From Candidatus Woesearchaeota archaeon (GTDB taxonomy: Archaea > Nanobdellota > Nanobdellia > SCGC-AAA011-G17 > GW2011-AR17), in the NCBI GenBank assembly GCA_964485975.1, contig CAZAKS010000001.1, forward strand, positions 1 through 27,049: DNA of 27,049 nt, in the 5' to 3' direction. A program made the translations under genes and the position numbers. Shown here piece by piece: positions 19,431 to 24,017 of the stretch. The notes beneath the pieces are model-generated. The model had not been told where the DNA came from, ran no database searches, and saw only the letters and a program-made list of their open reading frames with translations. How positions within the stretch are numbered: the stretch's first letter is position 1; every line of letters starts with the position of its first letter.

Positions 19431-19742
19431 ATGGCAACCAAGACACCGAGAGTCCTCTCATTGAGGGGATTCTTAGCCTTTCAAATACTTCATGAACTGA
19501 AGAGAAAGAGACTCTGTGGGGATGAACTAGCTGAAAATATAGGAAAGAAAAAAGGTTCAAAACTAACACCTGGAACTATATATCCTACTTTGAAATATCT
19601 TAGAAAAAAGAAATTACTGACGAGAAAGAAGGCAGGAAGGAAGAAAATCTATGATTTAACAGAAAAAGGAGTAGAAGAGTACAAGCTTTTCAAAAAAGCA
19701 TTTATTAAAATATTCAAAGATATTTACAACAAAAAGATTTAA
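19431..19742 (+). CDS. PadR-family winged-helix transcriptional regulator
   Basis: ILHELK...GDELAE...LTPGTIYPTLKYL...RKKIYDLTEKG. Confidence 0.9.
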   Translation: MATKTPRVLSLRGFLAFQILHELKRKRLCGDELAENIGKKKGSKLTPGTIYPTLKYLRKKKLLTRKKAGRKKIYDLTEKGVEEYKLFKKAFIKIFKDIYNKKI

Positions 19743-20845: not shown

Positions 20846-20974
20846 GTATTTTAGTACAAATATAGTGAAAGAAGTAATTCTTTTATATTTGAGCATTACA
20901 GGGCTTAATTCTAAAGACTAGATATAATATACATTCAGGGAAGTTTTATATATTAGTTTGGAGTGTATAGTGTT

Positions 20975-21796
20975 ATGGATTATTTGAATAAATTAGAGGT
21001 GGAATTAAAAATTAGAGGGATGAGTAAGAATACTATTGAAACTTATGTCTTCCATGTTAGGAACTTTTTAGATTATGTAAATAAGCACCCTTCAAGAATT
21101 ATTGAAGATGATGTTAAGAGGTATCAGGCATATTTAATGTATGATAAAAAAATTAAATCTAGAACAATAAATATAATCTTGAGTTCATTGAAGTTCTTTT
21201 TTGGTGAGATTTTAGGTAATGATATTACAGCTAGAATCAAAAGACCCAAATTTGAGAAGAAAATACCAATTACCTTGTCTAAAAAGGAGATTAAAAACCT
21301 TTTAGAAACGATTAAAAACATTAAGCATAGAATTTTACTTGAGTTAATGGTTTCCAGTGGGTTAAGGGTTTCTGAAGCTGTTGCCTTGAAAGTAGAAGAT
21401 ATTGATTTTGATGAAAAGACAGTCCATATTAAGTCAGGGAAAGGAAATAAGGATAGAAAGACAATTATTTCTAGTTCTATTTTGAAGTTGATTAATGAGT
21501 ATCTAGATTCTAGGAAAAGAGATTCTGAGTATTTATTTGAGAAAAAGGAAGGACATATTGGGGTTAAACTCCCTCAATTAATAGTTAAAGAAGCTGCAAA
21601 GAAGGCGAAGATTAGGAAGAAAGTATCTTGTCATAATCTTAGGCATTCATTTGCTACTCATCTCCTTAATGAAGGAGTAGATATAAGGTTAATTCAGGTT
21701 CTTTTAGGACATTCAGATATATCAACAACCCAAATTTATACACAAGTGAGTACAGAACAGATAAAGAAAATTAAGAATCCTTTTGAAGAGATTTAA
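20975..21796 (+). CDS. Xer-type tyrosine recombinase (XerA-like)
   Basis: N-terminal SAM-like domain; intact catalytic set GLRVSE (R), KGNK (K), HNLRH, LLGH and TTQIY. GGAG upstream of ATG 20975. Confidence 0.9.
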   Translation: MDYLNKLEVELKIRGMSKNTIETYVFHVRNFLDYVNKHPSRIIEDDVKRYQAYLMYDKKIKSRTINIILSSLKFFFGEILGNDITARIKRPKFEKKIPITLSKKEIKNLLETIKNIKHRILLELMVSSGLRVSEAVALKVEDIDFDEKTVHIKSGKGNKDRKTIISSSILKLINEYLDSRKRDSEYLFEKKEGHIGVKLPQLIVKEAAKKAKIRKKVSCHNLRHSFATHLLNEGVDIRLIQVLLGHSDISTTQIYTQVSTEQIKKIKNPFEEI

Positions 21797-22413
21797 TCTA
21801 ATTCTTCTTGATTAACATCTTCTTTTTTATTAGAATTCTTAGATTTTTTTGCCTTTTTTGTTGGTTTTATTTGAAAATATTTCCTCTTATCTTGTTTCAA
21901 ACAAACATAAGCATACTTACCTATTCTTTTCTTTAAGATATATCCATCTAATTCTAACTTTATTACTAATTGAGAAATTTGTGATCTTGATTTTTCATAA
22001 TCCTTCTCGGGGTACAACTCTATTGCTAAGGCCTTTAGTGCTACCCAGTCTCCCTTTTCATTGTGTAAAGAACCAAGAATTCTACATGCTCTTCTTTCAG
22101 CTATAGACATATGGATGATTGGGCTTTCTTCTTGTGAAGTTTCTTTTTCTTCTACTCTTTCGATTTCTTCTACTCTTTCTGGCATTGGAGTAGCTGCTAA
22201 GATTTGTTCTAGTTTTTCAATTCTATCTAAAAGAGATTGGTGATTATTTGTATGTTCTTCATGTTTTTTATTGTGATCAGTATGTGTACTTTTGAAGTGG
22301 TTTATCCAACTAGAAATATGATTCATATCGTGTTTAATATTAGAAAATGAATTTTTAATTGCTTCAGGATCTACCTGATTATCACTTCTTTTTTTGAATA
22401 GCCACCAGACCAT
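21793..22413 (-). CDS. Coiled-coil + C-terminal winged-helix protein A
   Basis: N-terminal AIKNSFSNIKHDM; C-terminal MSIAERRACRIL...LKALAIEL...RSQISQLVIKLELDGYILKKRIGKYAYV has a wHTH-like pattern. Confidence 0.75.
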   Translation of the reverse strand: MVWWLFKKRSDNQVDPEAIKNSFSNIKHDMNHISSWINHFKSTHTDHNKKHEEHTNNHQSLLDRIEKLEQILAATPMPERVEEIERVEEKETSQEESPIIHMSIAERRACRILGSLHNEKGDWVALKALAIELYPEKDYEKSRSQISQLVIKLELDGYILKKRIGKYAYVCLKQDKRKYFQIKPTKKAKKSKNSNKKEDVNQEELD

Positions 22414-22472
22414 TCTTTATTGAGTGTTGTTTTTATTTATTAATGTTTTGGATTGTTTATTTTTTGTCAATG

Positions 22473-22532
22473 ATTGTCAAGTTACGTTAGTATAACGTCA
22501 ACTGAAACGTTAGACGACAAAAACTTGACAAT
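22473..22532. repeat. Perfect 11-bp inverted repeat enclosing three phased ACGT motifs
   Basis: ATTGTCAAGTT (22473-22483) and AACTTGACAAT (22522-22532); ACGT at 22484, 22495 and 22507. Confidence 0.8.
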
Positions 22533-22660
22533 AAATATACAATAATTATCGACGATAGAAGTAAAAATCAATAAAATAAAGAAATAATACTCTAAAATAA
22601 GCAAATTTAAGCTAAAAAAGGCAAAAGTGAGAGTTAGAATAGGTGTGCATAAGCAATGAA

Positions 22661-22693
22661 TAAGTGCACAAGATGTGTCCAGGATGTGTTTAA
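22661..22693. repeat. 33-bp repeat block, copy A (downstream of wHTH gene B)
   Basis: 31/33 identical to 23442-23474, including an identical 22-bp core GATGTGTCCAGGATGTGTTTAA. Confidence 0.9.
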
Positions 22694-22750
22694 ACAATAA
22701 AAAGAGACAAAATAAAGCTAAAATAAGCTTATTTTTACTAAAGTGAGAGT

Positions 22751-23386
22751 TTAGAAGCTATCATTTAGCTTTTTTTGAGTAGGATCTAGGTTATAGAAAG
22801 TATTTACAAGCTTCTTCTTAATATTAAGTGAGCGTATTTCAGGAGGAATAGATAAGATAATAACTTTATTATTATACTTAGATTTAAGCACGGGAAGACC
22901 TTTTTTAATCAATCCAGAAACATAAGTTCTTACACAACCAGAGGTTATTTTAAGGTTTTGTCCGACGTCGTCGTATGTTACCTTGGAAATCTCTTCTTCT
23001 AATTGATATATAGTCAGGAAGGTTAAGAATTCTTGCTTTGAAAGTCTTGAAAGAATGCTTGGAAGGTTCTCCTGGAGCTCTTGAATATTAAGTGAATAAC
23101 CATCTAGTGAATAACCAGGAAGTGAATAACCATCTAATGAAACCCCTTTATTTCCACTGGAGTCTTCATTTTTAAGTGATGAATCCAGTAAATTTTGGGG
23201 TTTTAGGTCTTCTAAAGCCCTAATTTGGCTATTTTGGTCTTTAAGTTGAGTCATAAGTGTGAGAAGTTGCTTATTTTGCTCTATTATGAAGTCTCTATTA
23301 GCTTTTACTTCCTGTTCCAATGTAGCAATATGGGCTTTTACCCTCGAGAAAGCATCTTTTATTGCATCTTCTTTAGAATCAACCAT
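22751..23386 (-). CDS. Coiled-coil + repeat linker + C-terminal winged-helix protein B
   Basis: N-terminal AIKDAFSRVKAHI; linker SLDGY-SLPGY-SLDGY; C-terminal LSKQEFLTFLTIYQLEE...TYDDVGQNLKITSGCVRTYVSGLIKKG has a wHTH-like pattern. Confidence 0.8.
   Translation of the reverse strand: MVDSKEDAIKDAFSRVKAHIATLEQEVKANRDFIIEQNKQLLTLMTQLKDQNSQIRALEDLKPQNLLDSSLKNEDSSGNKGVSLDGYSLPGYSLDGYSLNIQELQENLPSILSRLSKQEFLTFLTIYQLEEEISKVTYDDVGQNLKITSGCVRTYVSGLIKKGLPVLKSKYNNKVIILSIPPEIRSLNIKKKLVNTFYNLDPTQKKLNDSF
23091..23135. repeat. 3 x 15-bp tandem repeat inside gene B
   Basis: AGTGAATAACCATCT / AGTGAATAACCAGGA / AGTGAATAACCATCT. Confidence 0.9.
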
Positions 23387-23407
23387 TTAGTAACCCTCAA
23401 TAGGCTA

Positions 23408-23520
23408 ATGTGAGTGAATAATATAAAAAAGTTTATGTGTTTAAGTGCATAGGATGTGTCCAGGATGTGTTTAAGATGTGCATAATGAGTGAATAAGTGC
23501 CCAATGAATGTTTAATGAGT
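23408..23520. repeat. Iteron-like array upstream of gene B (includes repeat block copy B, 23442-23474)
   Basis: ATGTG at 23408, 23435, 23454, 23465 and 23476 (last three 11 bp apart); TGAGTGAATAA at 23411 and 23486; ATGAGT at 23485 and 23515. Confidence 0.85.
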
Positions 23521-23558
23521 CTTTTTATACAAAGAAAGTAAAAAGAAATAAAAAATAA

Positions 23559-24017
23559 TTAACCAATATACTCTTCTGCCTTTTTCTCTGAAGGTGTTTT
23601 CTCAGAGTCTGCAGGTTGGATCATTGGTAATCTAATGTGTGGTGGCAAACCTAGCTCTTGACCTAATAATAATGCCTTAATGTTACATCTTAAAAGAACA
23701 TTATTCATTATTAATTGGGTGGCTTTAGGTTCAAATTTTTTGGTTTTTTTCCATTCTCCAATCATTTTTATTAATTTGTCTTTTTCTTCTAAAAACATCA
23801 AATGGCCTTCTATCAATATTTCTGCTTGTTTTGGAGCATATCTTACAGAAAACTCATAATCCACCTTCATTACAGTTTGGGTTTGATCTCCACTTAATGG
23901 AATTTCTTCTTGTTTAATATCTACAATCTTCATCCCAGTATCTATATTTAAGGGGGCCTCTAATGGTTTTTTTCGTTCAACATGGAACTTATCAAAATTA
24001 AATCCTACTACTGGCAT
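23559..24017 (-). CDS. Hypothetical protein, possibly SecB-like fold
   Basis: MPVVGFNFDKFHVER...YEFSVRYAP...ILIEGHL...NNVLLRCNIKALLLGQELGLPPHIRLP. Four beta-strands followed by helices is reminiscent of SecB (inference). Confidence 0.6.
   Translation of the reverse strand: MPVVGFNFDKFHVERKKPLEAPLNIDTGMKIVDIKQEEIPLSGDQTQTVMKVDYEFSVRYAPKQAEILIEGHLMFLEEKDKLIKMIGEWKKTKKFEPKATQLIMNNVLLRCNIKALLLGQELGLPPHIRLPMIQPADSEKTPSEKKAEEYIG

What the first reader, a model, noticed from the sequence alone, without database searches (positions are those of the whole stretch)
20975..23530. Candidate undescribed origin/partition locus: Xer recombinase + two paralogous coiled-coil/wHTH proteins in phased repeat arrays
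Seen: two co-oriented genes share an N-terminal signature (AIKNSFSNIKHDM vs AIKDAFSRVKAHI) and both end in wHTH-like domains. They border two of the longest intergenic spaces in the window (about 340 and 170 bp). These hold 11-bp-phased repeats, palindromes and a 60-bp tract of about 17% GC (22561-22620). A catalytically intact Xer-type recombinase gene converges on gene A with a 4-nt overlap. Established: repeats phased by one helical turn plus an AT-rich unwinding element next to a wHTH initiator gene is the layout of iteron replicons and of Sulfolobus WhiP/oriC3. Repeat arrays plus DNA-binding proteins also define centromere/partition loci. Inference: this is a non-Orc1 replication origin or chromosome-segregation module of a DPANN archaeon, with the recombinase resolving dimers.
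Basis: partly seen in the sequence, partly recalled or inferred. Interest (0 to 1): 0.88.

Follow-up and report, generated by a model that had tools for sequence, protein, structure and literature searches.

The report
Origin-proximal DNA-binding gene pair with repeat arrays
Two related DNA-binding protein genes of a tiny (DPANN) archaeon lie in 11-bp-phased repeat arrays about 7 kb from the ordinary replication origin, and one gene carries a conserved binding box for the replication initiator in its codons, so the locus looks like an undescribed accessory of the origin, not a new origin.

Summary
A (21793-22413, -) and B (22751-23386, -) are true paralogues (hhalign 97%, E 6e-11). Each has a long N-terminal helix, a disordered linker and a C-terminal winged helix. 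The 11-nt phasing upstream of B is the strongest of 237 upstream regions in this genome, and clusters of both repeat types occur only at this locus.

In relatives the single orc1/cdc6 gene lies 5-15 kb away. It is followed by the PolD genes and preceded by a textbook origin: inverted ORB boxes around a tract of about 11% GC. A non-Orc1 origin is therefore unnecessary. No partition NTPase lies in any of 30 loci. XerA adjacency holds only in close relatives.

New here: B codons 75-81 (S-S-G-N-K-G-V, 23142-23161) spell a perfect ORB-type box. It is present in 26 of 28 relatives, always with the rare codons TCC and GGG, which indicates selection on the DNA. The B-A pair with phased arrays abutting each TATA box is kept in all 30 loci examined.

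Best reading (0.5): a self-binding, autoregulated pair forming an Orc1-linked accessory module of the nearby origin. This scan has already reported the same module in other DPANN genomes.

The parts
20963..21796 (+). xerA, archaeal Xer-type tyrosine recombinase (277 aa; alternative ATG at 20975). A neighbour, probably not a functional part of the module.
   Evidence: NCBIfam recomb_XerA_Arch 268 bits against cut-off 220. Pfam Phage_integrase 1e-45. Catalytic R, K, HxxR, H and Y read in the translation.
21793..22413 (-). Gene A (206 aa): conserved N-terminal MxWWLFKKR peptide, helix with the IKNSFSNIKxDM signature, acidic disordered linker, C-terminal winged helix, Lys-rich tail.
   Evidence: An A homologue is adjacent to B in all 30 loci.
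22431..22444 (-). TATA-like box of gene A (TTAATAAATAAAAA on the - strand), 18-31 nt before the ATG.
   Evidence: Read. The same xGAAAxxTTTAATAA-type element precedes A in relatives.
22450..22558 (-). A-type repeat region: ATTGTC / GACAAT words in direct and inverted copies around TAACGT / ACGTTA words, abutting the A promoter.
   Evidence: Clusters of TAACGT or TTGACAA are unique to this place in the genome. Relatives have 6-10 units at an 11-nt period here, with lineage-specific words.
22561..22620 (.). AT-rich tract (16.7% GC) between the two repeat types.
   Evidence: Not unusual for this genome: 120 of 300 spacers have an equally AT-rich 60-mer.
22623..22636 (-). Second copy of the locus-specific motif TAACTCTCACTTTT.
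   Evidence: (D15). It is not a genome-wide element. Two to four copies lie in the spacers of relatives.
22641..22693 (-). Downstream B-type array (ACACAT / GCACTT words at an 11-nt period).
   Evidence: (D3, D5).
22739..22753 (-). First copy of TAAACTCTCACTTT, overlapping the stop codon of B.
   Evidence: It follows the B stop codon in L002-L006, L012, L061 and L069.
22751..23386 (-). Gene B (211 aa): N-terminal helix with the IKDAFSRVKxHI signature, disordered linker, C-terminal MarR-like winged helix, conserved C-terminal QKxLxxxF tail.
   Evidence: The family has 1055 representative clusters and was found in 116 of 151 sampled genomes of the phylum.
23082..23142 (-). Three 15-nt tandem units GGTTATTCACT inside the linker codons of B (peptide GYSL x3). 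They carry the same word TTATTCAC as the upstream array.
   Evidence: (D1): 5 of the genome's 37 TTATTCAC copies lie here within 400 bp, all on the B sense strand.
23142..23161 (-). ORB-type box TCCAGTGGAAATAAAGGGGT (mini-ORB dyad plus G-string), equal to codons 75-81 (S-S-G-N-K-G-V) of B.
   Evidence: It is the only zero-mismatch match in the window and the only dyad plus G-string in the genome. It is present in 26 of 28 B genes, always with TCC (4.4% of Ser codons) and GGG (10.7% of Gly codons). It resembles the oriC boxes of the sister genome.
23420..23431 (-). TATA box of gene B (TTTTTTATATT on the - strand), about 34-45 nt before the ATG.
   Evidence: It aligns with TTTATTTATAT in 7 loci.
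23431..23512 (-). Upstream B-type array: 7-8 co-oriented units (TAAACACAT, GGACACATC, ATGCACWT, TTATTCACT) at an 11-nt period, abutting the TATA box.
   Evidence: Four or more RCACWT in 70 nt is unique in the genome. The periodicity is the top of 237 controls.
23559..24017 (-). Conserved 152-aa gene always found between argS and B. In G030 it is divergent from B and shares the array spacer.
   Evidence: No Pfam or NCBIfam match. Atlas look-alikes are archaeal hypotheticals.

Best explanation
This is a conserved two-gene module of the origin-proximal region of DPANN (Nanoarchaeota-type) chromosomes. It is neither an origin nor a classical partition locus. A and B are paralogous DNA-binding proteins, each with an N-terminal coiled-coil-type helix, a flexible linker and a C-terminal winged helix. 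Inferred mechanism: the helices make dimers or higher oligomers. Each winged helix reads one short word. Because the words are co-oriented and spaced by one helical turn, several proteins line up on one face of the DNA. B words lie directly upstream of the B TATA box, inside the linker codons of B and just after its stop codon. A words lie directly upstream of the A TATA box. Occupancy would therefore set the transcription of both genes (autoregulation) and build one large nucleoprotein complex at this single place in the chromosome. A canonical Orc1/Cdc6 recognition box is written into the linker codons of B. It has the same polarity as the near-side box of the true oriC about 7 kb away. The module is thus probably coupled to the replication initiator, either through control of B expression by Orc1/Cdc6 or through B-assisted binding or titration of Orc1/Cdc6. 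Shown: paralogy, folds, arrays and their uniqueness, conservation, the ORB box and its synonymous-site fixation, and proximity to cdc6-oriC. Inferred: who binds what, autoregulation, and the link to initiation.
For: Paralogy and fold. Arrays. The 11-nt periodicity upstream of B is the highest of 237 control regions. Of the relatives, 12 of 27 upstream-B and 18 of 23 upstream-A regions exceed the 95th percentile of controls, nearly always at lag 11. The arrays abut BRE/TATA-like boxes in all loci. Clusters of B words and of A words occur only here in this genome, and clusters of A words only there in the closed relative G025. B words are all on the B sense strand, including three inside the coding linker. 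Words change where the recognition helix changes: GC(I/V)RTY lineages carry CACWT / ATTCA words, while lineages with other helices (L063, L068, L070, L071, L062) carry other words. The A-B adjacency is kept in 30 of 30 loci. The ORB box is shown, and the oriC boxes for comparison. Origin proximity. A precedent for initiator boxes inside a gene beside oriC is the dp1 ORB cluster bound by Cdc6 in Pyrococcus (PMC1904270).
Against: No binding has been measured, and which protein reads which word rests only on position and on co-variation that follows phylogeny. The A:B complex prediction gave no verdict. A lone mini-ORB did not bind Cdc6 stably in Pyrococcus in vivo (PMC1904270), although this box also has the G-string of a full ORB. 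Two relatives (G025 and L062) lack the box yet keep the pair, so the Orc1 link is not essential to the module. No RNA data exist for this organism, so promoters and autoregulation remain predictions.
Confidence: 0.5

Rival explanations
1. Ordinary pair of autoregulated transcription factors. The arrays are operators only. The 'ORB box' is a by-product of a conserved peptide motif (SxGNxGV) needed by the protein, with no role for Orc1/Cdc6 or for the origin.
For: The winged helix is MarR-like. The arrays abut the TATA boxes. A repeat operator at a single locus is known for autoregulators such as KfrA (PMC7783346). Two lineages lack the box.
Against: Synonymous positions of the motif are fixed on rare codons in 24 or more lineages (TCC 4.4% of Ser, GGG 10.7% of Gly), while the positions that vary are those that vary in ORB boxes. 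Operator words also sit inside the coding linker and after the stop codon. The module stays 5-15 kb from cdc6 across many families.
Confidence: 0.2
2. Origin-proximal centromere or membrane tether. The arrays are a single cis site near oriC that A and B hold together. A anchors it to the membrane through its hydrophobic-basic N-terminal peptide (MVWWLFKKR), helping to place or segregate sister origins, as RicO/ricS does in Staphylococcus or ParR/parC on plasmids.
For: The arrays form a single locus in the genome. They lie near oriC in 14 of 14 genomes. The architecture of 11-nt direct repeats at the binder's own promoter resembles parC/tubC (own knowledge). The A N-terminus is conserved in most of 34 sequences. 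RicO shows that a DNA-binding domain plus a membrane helix plus origin-proximal sites can do this (bioRxiv 10.64898/2026.03.06.710092).
Against: No motor NTPase lies in any of the 30 loci, and the genome has only a weak CbiA-family hit elsewhere. Membrane binding of nine residues is a guess, and the model leaves them unstructured. B lacks such a peptide.
Confidence: 0.15
3. A second replication origin, fired by A/B as initiators or by Orc1/Cdc6 from the intragenic box, with the AT-rich tract as the unwinding element.
For: There are repeats, an AT-rich tract and one ORB box within 700 bp.
Against: A complete canonical oriC lies next to cdc6 about 7 kb away in the sister genome. There is only one box, it is inside a gene, it lies about 520 bp from the AT tract, and its dyad side faces away from that tract. 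The AT tract is ordinary for this genome. In closed G025 the gene-orientation switch and the purine-skew minimum fall at the cdc6 spacer, not at A/B. A and B match no Rep, WhiP/Cdt1 or Orc families.
Confidence: 0.04
4. Remnant of an integrated plasmid or virus: integrase plus two wHTH genes with iterons.
For: A tyrosine recombinase is adjacent. The repeats look like iterons. The genome has seven further recombinase hits.
Against: The recombinase is the XerA equivalog. The pair is single-copy and syntenic with argS, lonB and cdc6 across the order. Composition does not differ from the flanks.
Confidence: 0.02

Closest known systems
Intragenic ORB / mini-ORB cluster in the dp1 (PolD small subunit) gene beside oriC of Pyrococcus and Thermococcus (Matsunaga et al. 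2007, PMC1904270)
   Same: Initiator recognition boxes are written into a protein-coding gene a few kb from the true origin and conserved across an order. In Pyrococcus they are bound by Cdc6/Orc1 in vivo and in vitro.
   Different: Here there is a single box rather than a cluster. It lies in the linker codons of a DNA-binding protein gene, 5-15 kb from oriC, and is surrounded by arrays of another word. Binding has not been tested.
KfrA of IncP/IncU plasmids (PMC7783346)
   Same: It is an HTH plus long coiled-coil protein and a strong autoregulator. Its operator is made of several short repeats at its own promoter, occurs once in the replicon, and has an accessory role in DNA maintenance.
   Different: The domain order is reversed (HTH N-terminal in KfrA). 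There was no hit at E <= 0.1 to any KfrA model or to any other family above its curated cut-off. KfrA is bacterial and plasmid-borne, with five 9-nt repeats overlapping the promoter rather than 11-nt phased arrays upstream of a TATA box.
ParR/parC (plasmid R1) and TubR/tubC centromeres (own knowledge)
   Same: Direct repeats of 11-12 bp spaced by one helical turn lie at the promoter of the gene for the binder. Binding is cooperative on one face of the DNA, and the centromere doubles as the operator. TubR is a winged-helix protein.
   Different: No ParM, TubZ or ParA motor gene is present. The module is chromosomal and vertically inherited, has two paralogous binders with different words, and includes an ORB box.
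RicO/ricS of Staphylococcus aureus (bioRxiv 10.64898/2026.03.06.710092)
   Same: A DNA-binding protein with a short membrane-binding peptide recognises sites in the origin-proximal region.
   Different: RicO is bacterial and unrelated in sequence. Its sites are dispersed rather than arrayed at its own gene. The membrane role of the A N-terminus is only guessed.
Canonical archaeal oriC (ORB boxes flanking a DUE next to orc1/cdc6, as in Pyrococcus oriC-cdc6-dp1-dp2)
   Same: The box type is the same (TTCC..GGAA dyad plus G-string), and the neighbourhood is the same.
   Different: The window locus lacks the inverted pair of boxes around an unwinding element and lacks the adjacent cdc6. The real oriC of this clade lies in the cdc6 spacer.

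Membership tests
Archaeal Orc1/Cdc6-dependent oriC | Lies directly beside an orc1/cdc6 gene | tested here: not met
   cdc6 of this genome is on contig C66. In relatives it lies 5-33 kb from B.
Archaeal Orc1/Cdc6-dependent oriC | Two or more ORB boxes in inverted orientation flanking an AT-rich unwinding element | tested here: not met
   One box only, inside B. The cdc6 spacer of L010, L012 and L007 does show this layout.
Archaeal Orc1/Cdc6-dependent oriC | Strand-asymmetry or gene-orientation switch at the site | tested here: not met
   In closed G025 the gene-orientation minimum is at 270,050 and the purine-skew minimum at 270,501, in or at the cdc6 spacer. A/B lie at 286.6-287.9 kb. The window's own genome is too fragmented to test.
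Archaeal Orc1/Cdc6-dependent oriC | Origin activity (marker frequency, ARS assay) | not testable with these tools
   Only assembled contigs of DNA runs are available and no raw reads.
Iteron replicon / WhiP-oriC3 type origin | Initiator homologous to Rep, WhiP/Cdt1 or Orc families | tested here: not met
   No such hits in Pfam, NCBIfam or PDB profile searches. Each protein has a single MarR-like wHTH.
Plasmid-type partition (par) locus | NTPase motor gene (ParA/SegA, ParM or TubZ) in the operon | tested here: not met
   None appears in the gene lists of the loci examined.
Plasmid-type partition (par) locus | Centromere of phased repeats at the promoter of the centromere-binding protein gene | tested here: met
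   Arrays with an 11-nt period abut the TATA boxes of A and B. This shows architecture only; binding is not shown.
XerA (archaeal Xer recombinase) | Passes the NCBIfam equivalog model and has intact catalytic residues | tested here: met
   268 bits against cut-off 220. R, K, HxxR, H and Y are present in the translation.
XerA (archaeal Xer recombinase) | Cognate dif site | not tested
   No dif model for this clade was at hand. In Thermococcales dif is in the terminus region, unlinked to xerA (PMC2958812).
MarR/ArsR-type winged-helix regulators | Sequence match above the Pfam gathering score | tested here: not met
   Only sub-threshold hits: DUF7343 15 bits, Fe_dep_repress 14 bits.
MarR/ArsR-type winged-helix regulators | Winged-helix fold (H-H-H-beta-beta) | tested here: met
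   Models with pLDDT around 90 in this domain. Foldseek best hit MepR at E 8e-4, with many MarR and ArsR chains. PDB profile hit SSO2273 at E 9e-5.
ORB (origin recognition box) | TTCC..GGAA dyad followed by a G-string, like the boxes of the clade's own oriC | tested here: met
   TCCAGTGGAAATAAAGGGGT at 23142-23161, against TTTCCATAGGAAATAGGGGTGG in the L010 oriC.
ORB (origin recognition box) | Bound by Orc1/Cdc6 | not testable with these tools
   Needs EMSA, footprinting or ChIP.

The most novel reading that the evidence does not exclude
The module is an initiator-control locus of archaeal chromosomes, an analogue of bacterial datA/DARS or of an origin tether. Oligomers of B and A assemble on the phased words around a lone ORB box and load, titrate or hand over Orc1/Cdc6, possibly looping to oriC 7 kb away. 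In this way they would time initiation or position the origin in organisms that have a single Orc1/Cdc6 and no known partition system. The odd linker peptides of B (SxGNxGV, GYSL repeats) would be by-products of DNA sites written through a reading frame.
Probability: 0.2. Interest if true: 0.85.

Novelty: new variant of a known kind. Interest (0 to 1): 0.6.

Why it matters
Replication control and chromosome segregation in DPANN archaea are unknown, and these organisms cannot yet be grown alone. This is a large uncharacterised protein family: 1055 clusters at 50% identity, found in 116 of 151 sampled genomes of the phylum. It is fixed next to the origin. It carries a conserved initiator box in its own codons and sits in arrays found nowhere else in the genome. 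That gives a concrete hypothesis that can be tested with recombinant proteins: which proteins bind which words, and whether Orc1/Cdc6 binds outside oriC. It is also a clear case of DNA sites constraining a protein sequence (dual coding), which matters for how conserved 'peptide motifs' in disordered linkers are read.

Tried and rejected
- A:B complex prediction with the N-terminal helices: score 0.02, no verdict. It is evidence neither for nor against binding.
- Rfam on the window and on 15 related loci, and tRNA scans: nothing found, so no known RNA gene explains the long B-A spacer. The spacers of relatives (240-920 bp) hold no conserved ORF.
- Bacterial-type promoter and terminator scan: uninformative for an archaeon.
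- RNA runs: none hold the locus, so expression, transcript ends and a read-depth gradient could not be examined. Read laying was not used because only assembled contigs are kept.
- Classical GC skew: the window's genome is in 144 contigs, and the closed relative G025 shows no sign switch at all. GC skew therefore cannot locate an origin in this clade. Gene orientation and purine skew were used instead.
- The idea that TAACTCTCACTTT is a general terminator or promoter word was rejected: it is not a genome-wide element.
The arrays are direct repeats that vary between genera, not a conserved 11-6-11 palindrome. No dif search was run.
- Literature searches found no description of this protein family. 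The library is limited to open-access papers and preprints.
Full report
**What is in the window.** The window is the whole of contig C1 of a 909-kb, 144-contig, 88%-complete genome of about 30% GC. Database relatives of its proteins are labelled archaeon or Nanoarchaeota (DPANN) from marine metagenomes. The genes at the finding are:
- xerA, 20963-21796 (+)
- gene A, 21793-22413 (-), 206 aa
- a 337-bp spacer
- gene B, 22751-23386 (-), 211 aa
- a 172-bp spacer
- a 152-aa gene, then argS

**Check of the observation.** Every descriptive point holds.
- The two proteins share the N-terminal signature. Pairwise BLASTP is weak, but profiles of the two families align over 155 columns at 97% probability, E 6e-11. 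They are real paralogues along their whole length.
- AlphaFold models built on family alignments give the same architecture for both: one long helix, a disordered linker and a C-terminal winged helix. Foldseek and a PDB profile search place that domain among MarR/ArsR-type winged helices.
- The two spacers are the first and third longest of the contig.
- Upstream of B there are 7-8 co-oriented units (TAAACACAT, GGACACATC, ATGCACWT, TTATTCACT) at an 11-nt period. The periodicity score is the highest of 237 upstream regions of this genome. A run of four or more RCACWT in 70 nt occurs nowhere else in the genome.
- A 33-nt block of the same words lies just after B.
- The recombinase is the XerA equivalog with intact catalytic residues.
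- The one weak point is the AT-rich tract. It is real (16.7% GC), but 40% of the spacers of this genome hold an equally AT-rich 60-mer.

**Conservation.** B has 94 word-index hits and 1055 representative clusters in an exhaustive profile search. A profile search found it in 116 of 151 high-quality genomes sampled over the phylum, with full-length matches throughout this order. In all 30 loci examined, an A homologue lies next to B: 26 in tandem and 4 convergent. The block argS - 150-aa gene - B - A is kept. The B-A spacer is long in most tandem loci (126-919 bp) and holds no conserved ORF, tRNA or Rfam RNA.

In nearly every locus, arrays of 5-10 short units at an 11-nt period abut a BRE/TATA-like box in front of A and in front of B. 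Against the 95th percentile of controls, 18 of 23 tandem upstream-A regions and 12 of 27 upstream-B regions score higher, almost always at lag 11. The words differ between lineages:
- A words: GTAACGYGTYR, TGTCTAYRA, GAACGTTCAC, and ATTGTC / TAACGT in this window.
- B words: stable (xxCACWT, ATTCAYT) wherever the B recognition helix reads GC(I/V)RTY, and different in lineages whose helix differs.

Clusters of A-type words are likewise unique in this genome and in the closed relative G025. This pattern is what one expects if each protein reads the array in front of its own gene. It is an inference, and the co-variation is not independent of phylogeny.

Each genome has one orc1/cdc6 gene. In this assembly it sits at the cut end of another contig (C66). 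In the sister genome G002 (B 91% identical) cdc6 lies about 7 kb from B. It is followed by the two PolD subunit genes and preceded by a 520-bp spacer. That spacer holds inverted ORB boxes (TTTCCATAGGAAATAGGGGTGG on one side, its mirror on the other, plus a mini-ORB) around about 200 bp of 11% GC. The same layout is seen in L012, L007 and G025. This is the classical oriC-cdc6-dp1-dp2 arrangement.

In the closed 737-kb relative G025, cumulative gene orientation has its minimum at 270,050 and purine skew at 270,501. Both fall at the cdc6 spacer, 16 kb from A/B. The A/B locus lacks the inverted pair of boxes around an unwinding element, and A and B match no initiator family. A non-Orc1 origin is therefore not needed and not supported.

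**Is it a partition locus?** The repeat architecture resembles parC or tubC, but no NTPase gene is present in any locus. The genome shows only a marginal CbiA-family hit elsewhere, together with an SMC. XerA overlaps A only in the closest relatives. Elsewhere it lies 1-4 kb away in varying positions. Published work places XerA action at a dif site in the terminus region, unlinked to the gene (PMC2958812). The recombinase is best treated as a neighbour.

Earlier reports of this scan on other DPANN genomes said that such gene pairs carry origin-recognition boxes in their linker codons. I tested this here.
- Codons 75-81 of B (S-S-G-N-K-G-V) read TCCAGTGGAAATAAAGGGGT at 23142-23161. This is a perfect mini-ORB dyad plus G-string.
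- It is the only zero-mismatch site in the window and the only dyad plus G-string in the genome.
- The box is present, in the same orientation and about 200-250 nt into the gene, in 26 of 28 B genes.
- It always uses TCC and GGG, which make up 4.4% of Ser and 10.7% of Gly codons here.
- The positions that vary between lineages are the ones that vary in ORB boxes.

This explains the nearly invariant SxGNxG motif in an otherwise disordered, variable linker as selection on the DNA. Read on the chromosome, the box has the same polarity as the oriC box on its side of the origin.

Directly after it, the linker is built from three 15-nt units carrying TTATTCAC, the same word as in the upstream array. 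Five of the genome's 37 copies lie within 400 bp here, all on the B sense strand. A third motif, TAACTCTCACTTT, overlaps the B stop codon and recurs in the spacer. In relatives it also follows the B TATA box, and it is not a genome-wide element. Its role is unexplained.

**Origin proximity.** In 14 genomes where B and cdc6 share a contig, they are 5-15 kb apart in 13 and 33 kb apart in one, across more than ten families. These genomes are kin, so this is conserved synteny and not 14 independent events. It has nevertheless survived much rearrangement around it.

**Synthesis.** The most economical reading is a self-binding, autoregulated pair of paralogous coiled-coil/winged-helix proteins. They would form one large nucleoprotein complex at their own locus, beside the true origin, with a conserved Orc1/Cdc6 box inside it. 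I give this 0.5. The rivals are:
- plain transcription factors with an accidental box (0.2; the synonymous-site evidence argues against it)
- an origin-proximal centromere or membrane tether (0.15; it relies on the conserved MxWWLFKKR N-terminus of A, an untested lead, with RicO as a functional precedent)
- a second origin (0.04)
- a mobile-element remnant (0.02)

The closest described things are the Cdc6-bound ORB cluster inside dp1 of Thermococcales (PMC1904270) and repeat-operator autoregulators with maintenance roles, such as KfrA (PMC7783346). Neither combines the features seen here, and I found no paper on this family.

**Verdict.** It is a new variant of known kinds. The scan has already met this module in several other genomes, so it is not new to the scan, but it appears unpublished. 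Interest 0.6.

Noticed in passing
G025 (relative, closed 736,802-bp contig; loci L015-L051): One strand is C>G and A>T along the whole chromosome. The orientation-independent offset is negative for GC skew in every 60-kb bin, and cumulative GC skew falls monotonically to -24,544 with no sign switch at the cdc6 origin or elsewhere. This is unexplained; unidirectional replication or another strand-specific process are possibilities.
   Followed up: partly
window 22751-22790 (C-terminus of B): The extreme C-terminus of B is a conserved disordered tail, DPxQKxLxxxF-COOH. It loosely resembles a PCNA-interacting (PIP) box but lacks the paired aromatic residues.
   Followed up: no
window 22387-22413 (N-terminus of A): The first nine residues of A, M-V-W-W-L-F-K-K-R, are conserved in most of 34 homologues and are unstructured in the model. 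The peptide is hydrophobic then basic, like short membrane-targeting peptides.
   Followed up: partly
window 22623-22636 and 22739-22753: The locus-specific motif TAACTCTCACTTT overlaps the B stop codon and is repeated in the spacer. In relatives there are 2-4 copies in the spacer and one just after the B TATA box. It is not a genome-wide element. Its function is unknown.
   Followed up: partly
window 23559-24017: A 152-aa protein is always found between argS and B, and in G030 it is divergent from B across the array. It has no Pfam or NCBIfam match. Atlas look-alikes are archaeal hypotheticals from several phyla, with distant SecB / DUF1149-like rows as leads only.
   Followed up: partly
G000:C66 and cdc6 contigs of G001, G032, G037, G033, G008, G006: In many of these assemblies cdc6 lies about 1 kb from a contig end, so assemblies tend to break in the oriC spacer. 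In this genome the origin itself is unassembled.
   Followed up: no
G000 contigs C38, C14, C85, C31, C30, C113: Seven further tyrosine-recombinase hits occur in a 0.9-Mb genome besides XerA. This hints at integrated elements.
   Followed up: no
L055 spacer 241-420 and L060 spacer 341-814 (B orientation): Two relatives carry an extra ORF inside the B-A spacer: a 59-aa HTH-like protein in L055 and a 157-aa Cys-containing protein in L060. Neither is conserved elsewhere.
   Followed up: no
window 19431-19742: A PadR-type winged-helix gene is kept 2-4 kb from the pair in L002, L003, L006, L008 and G030. It may belong to the same neighbourhood.
   Followed up: no
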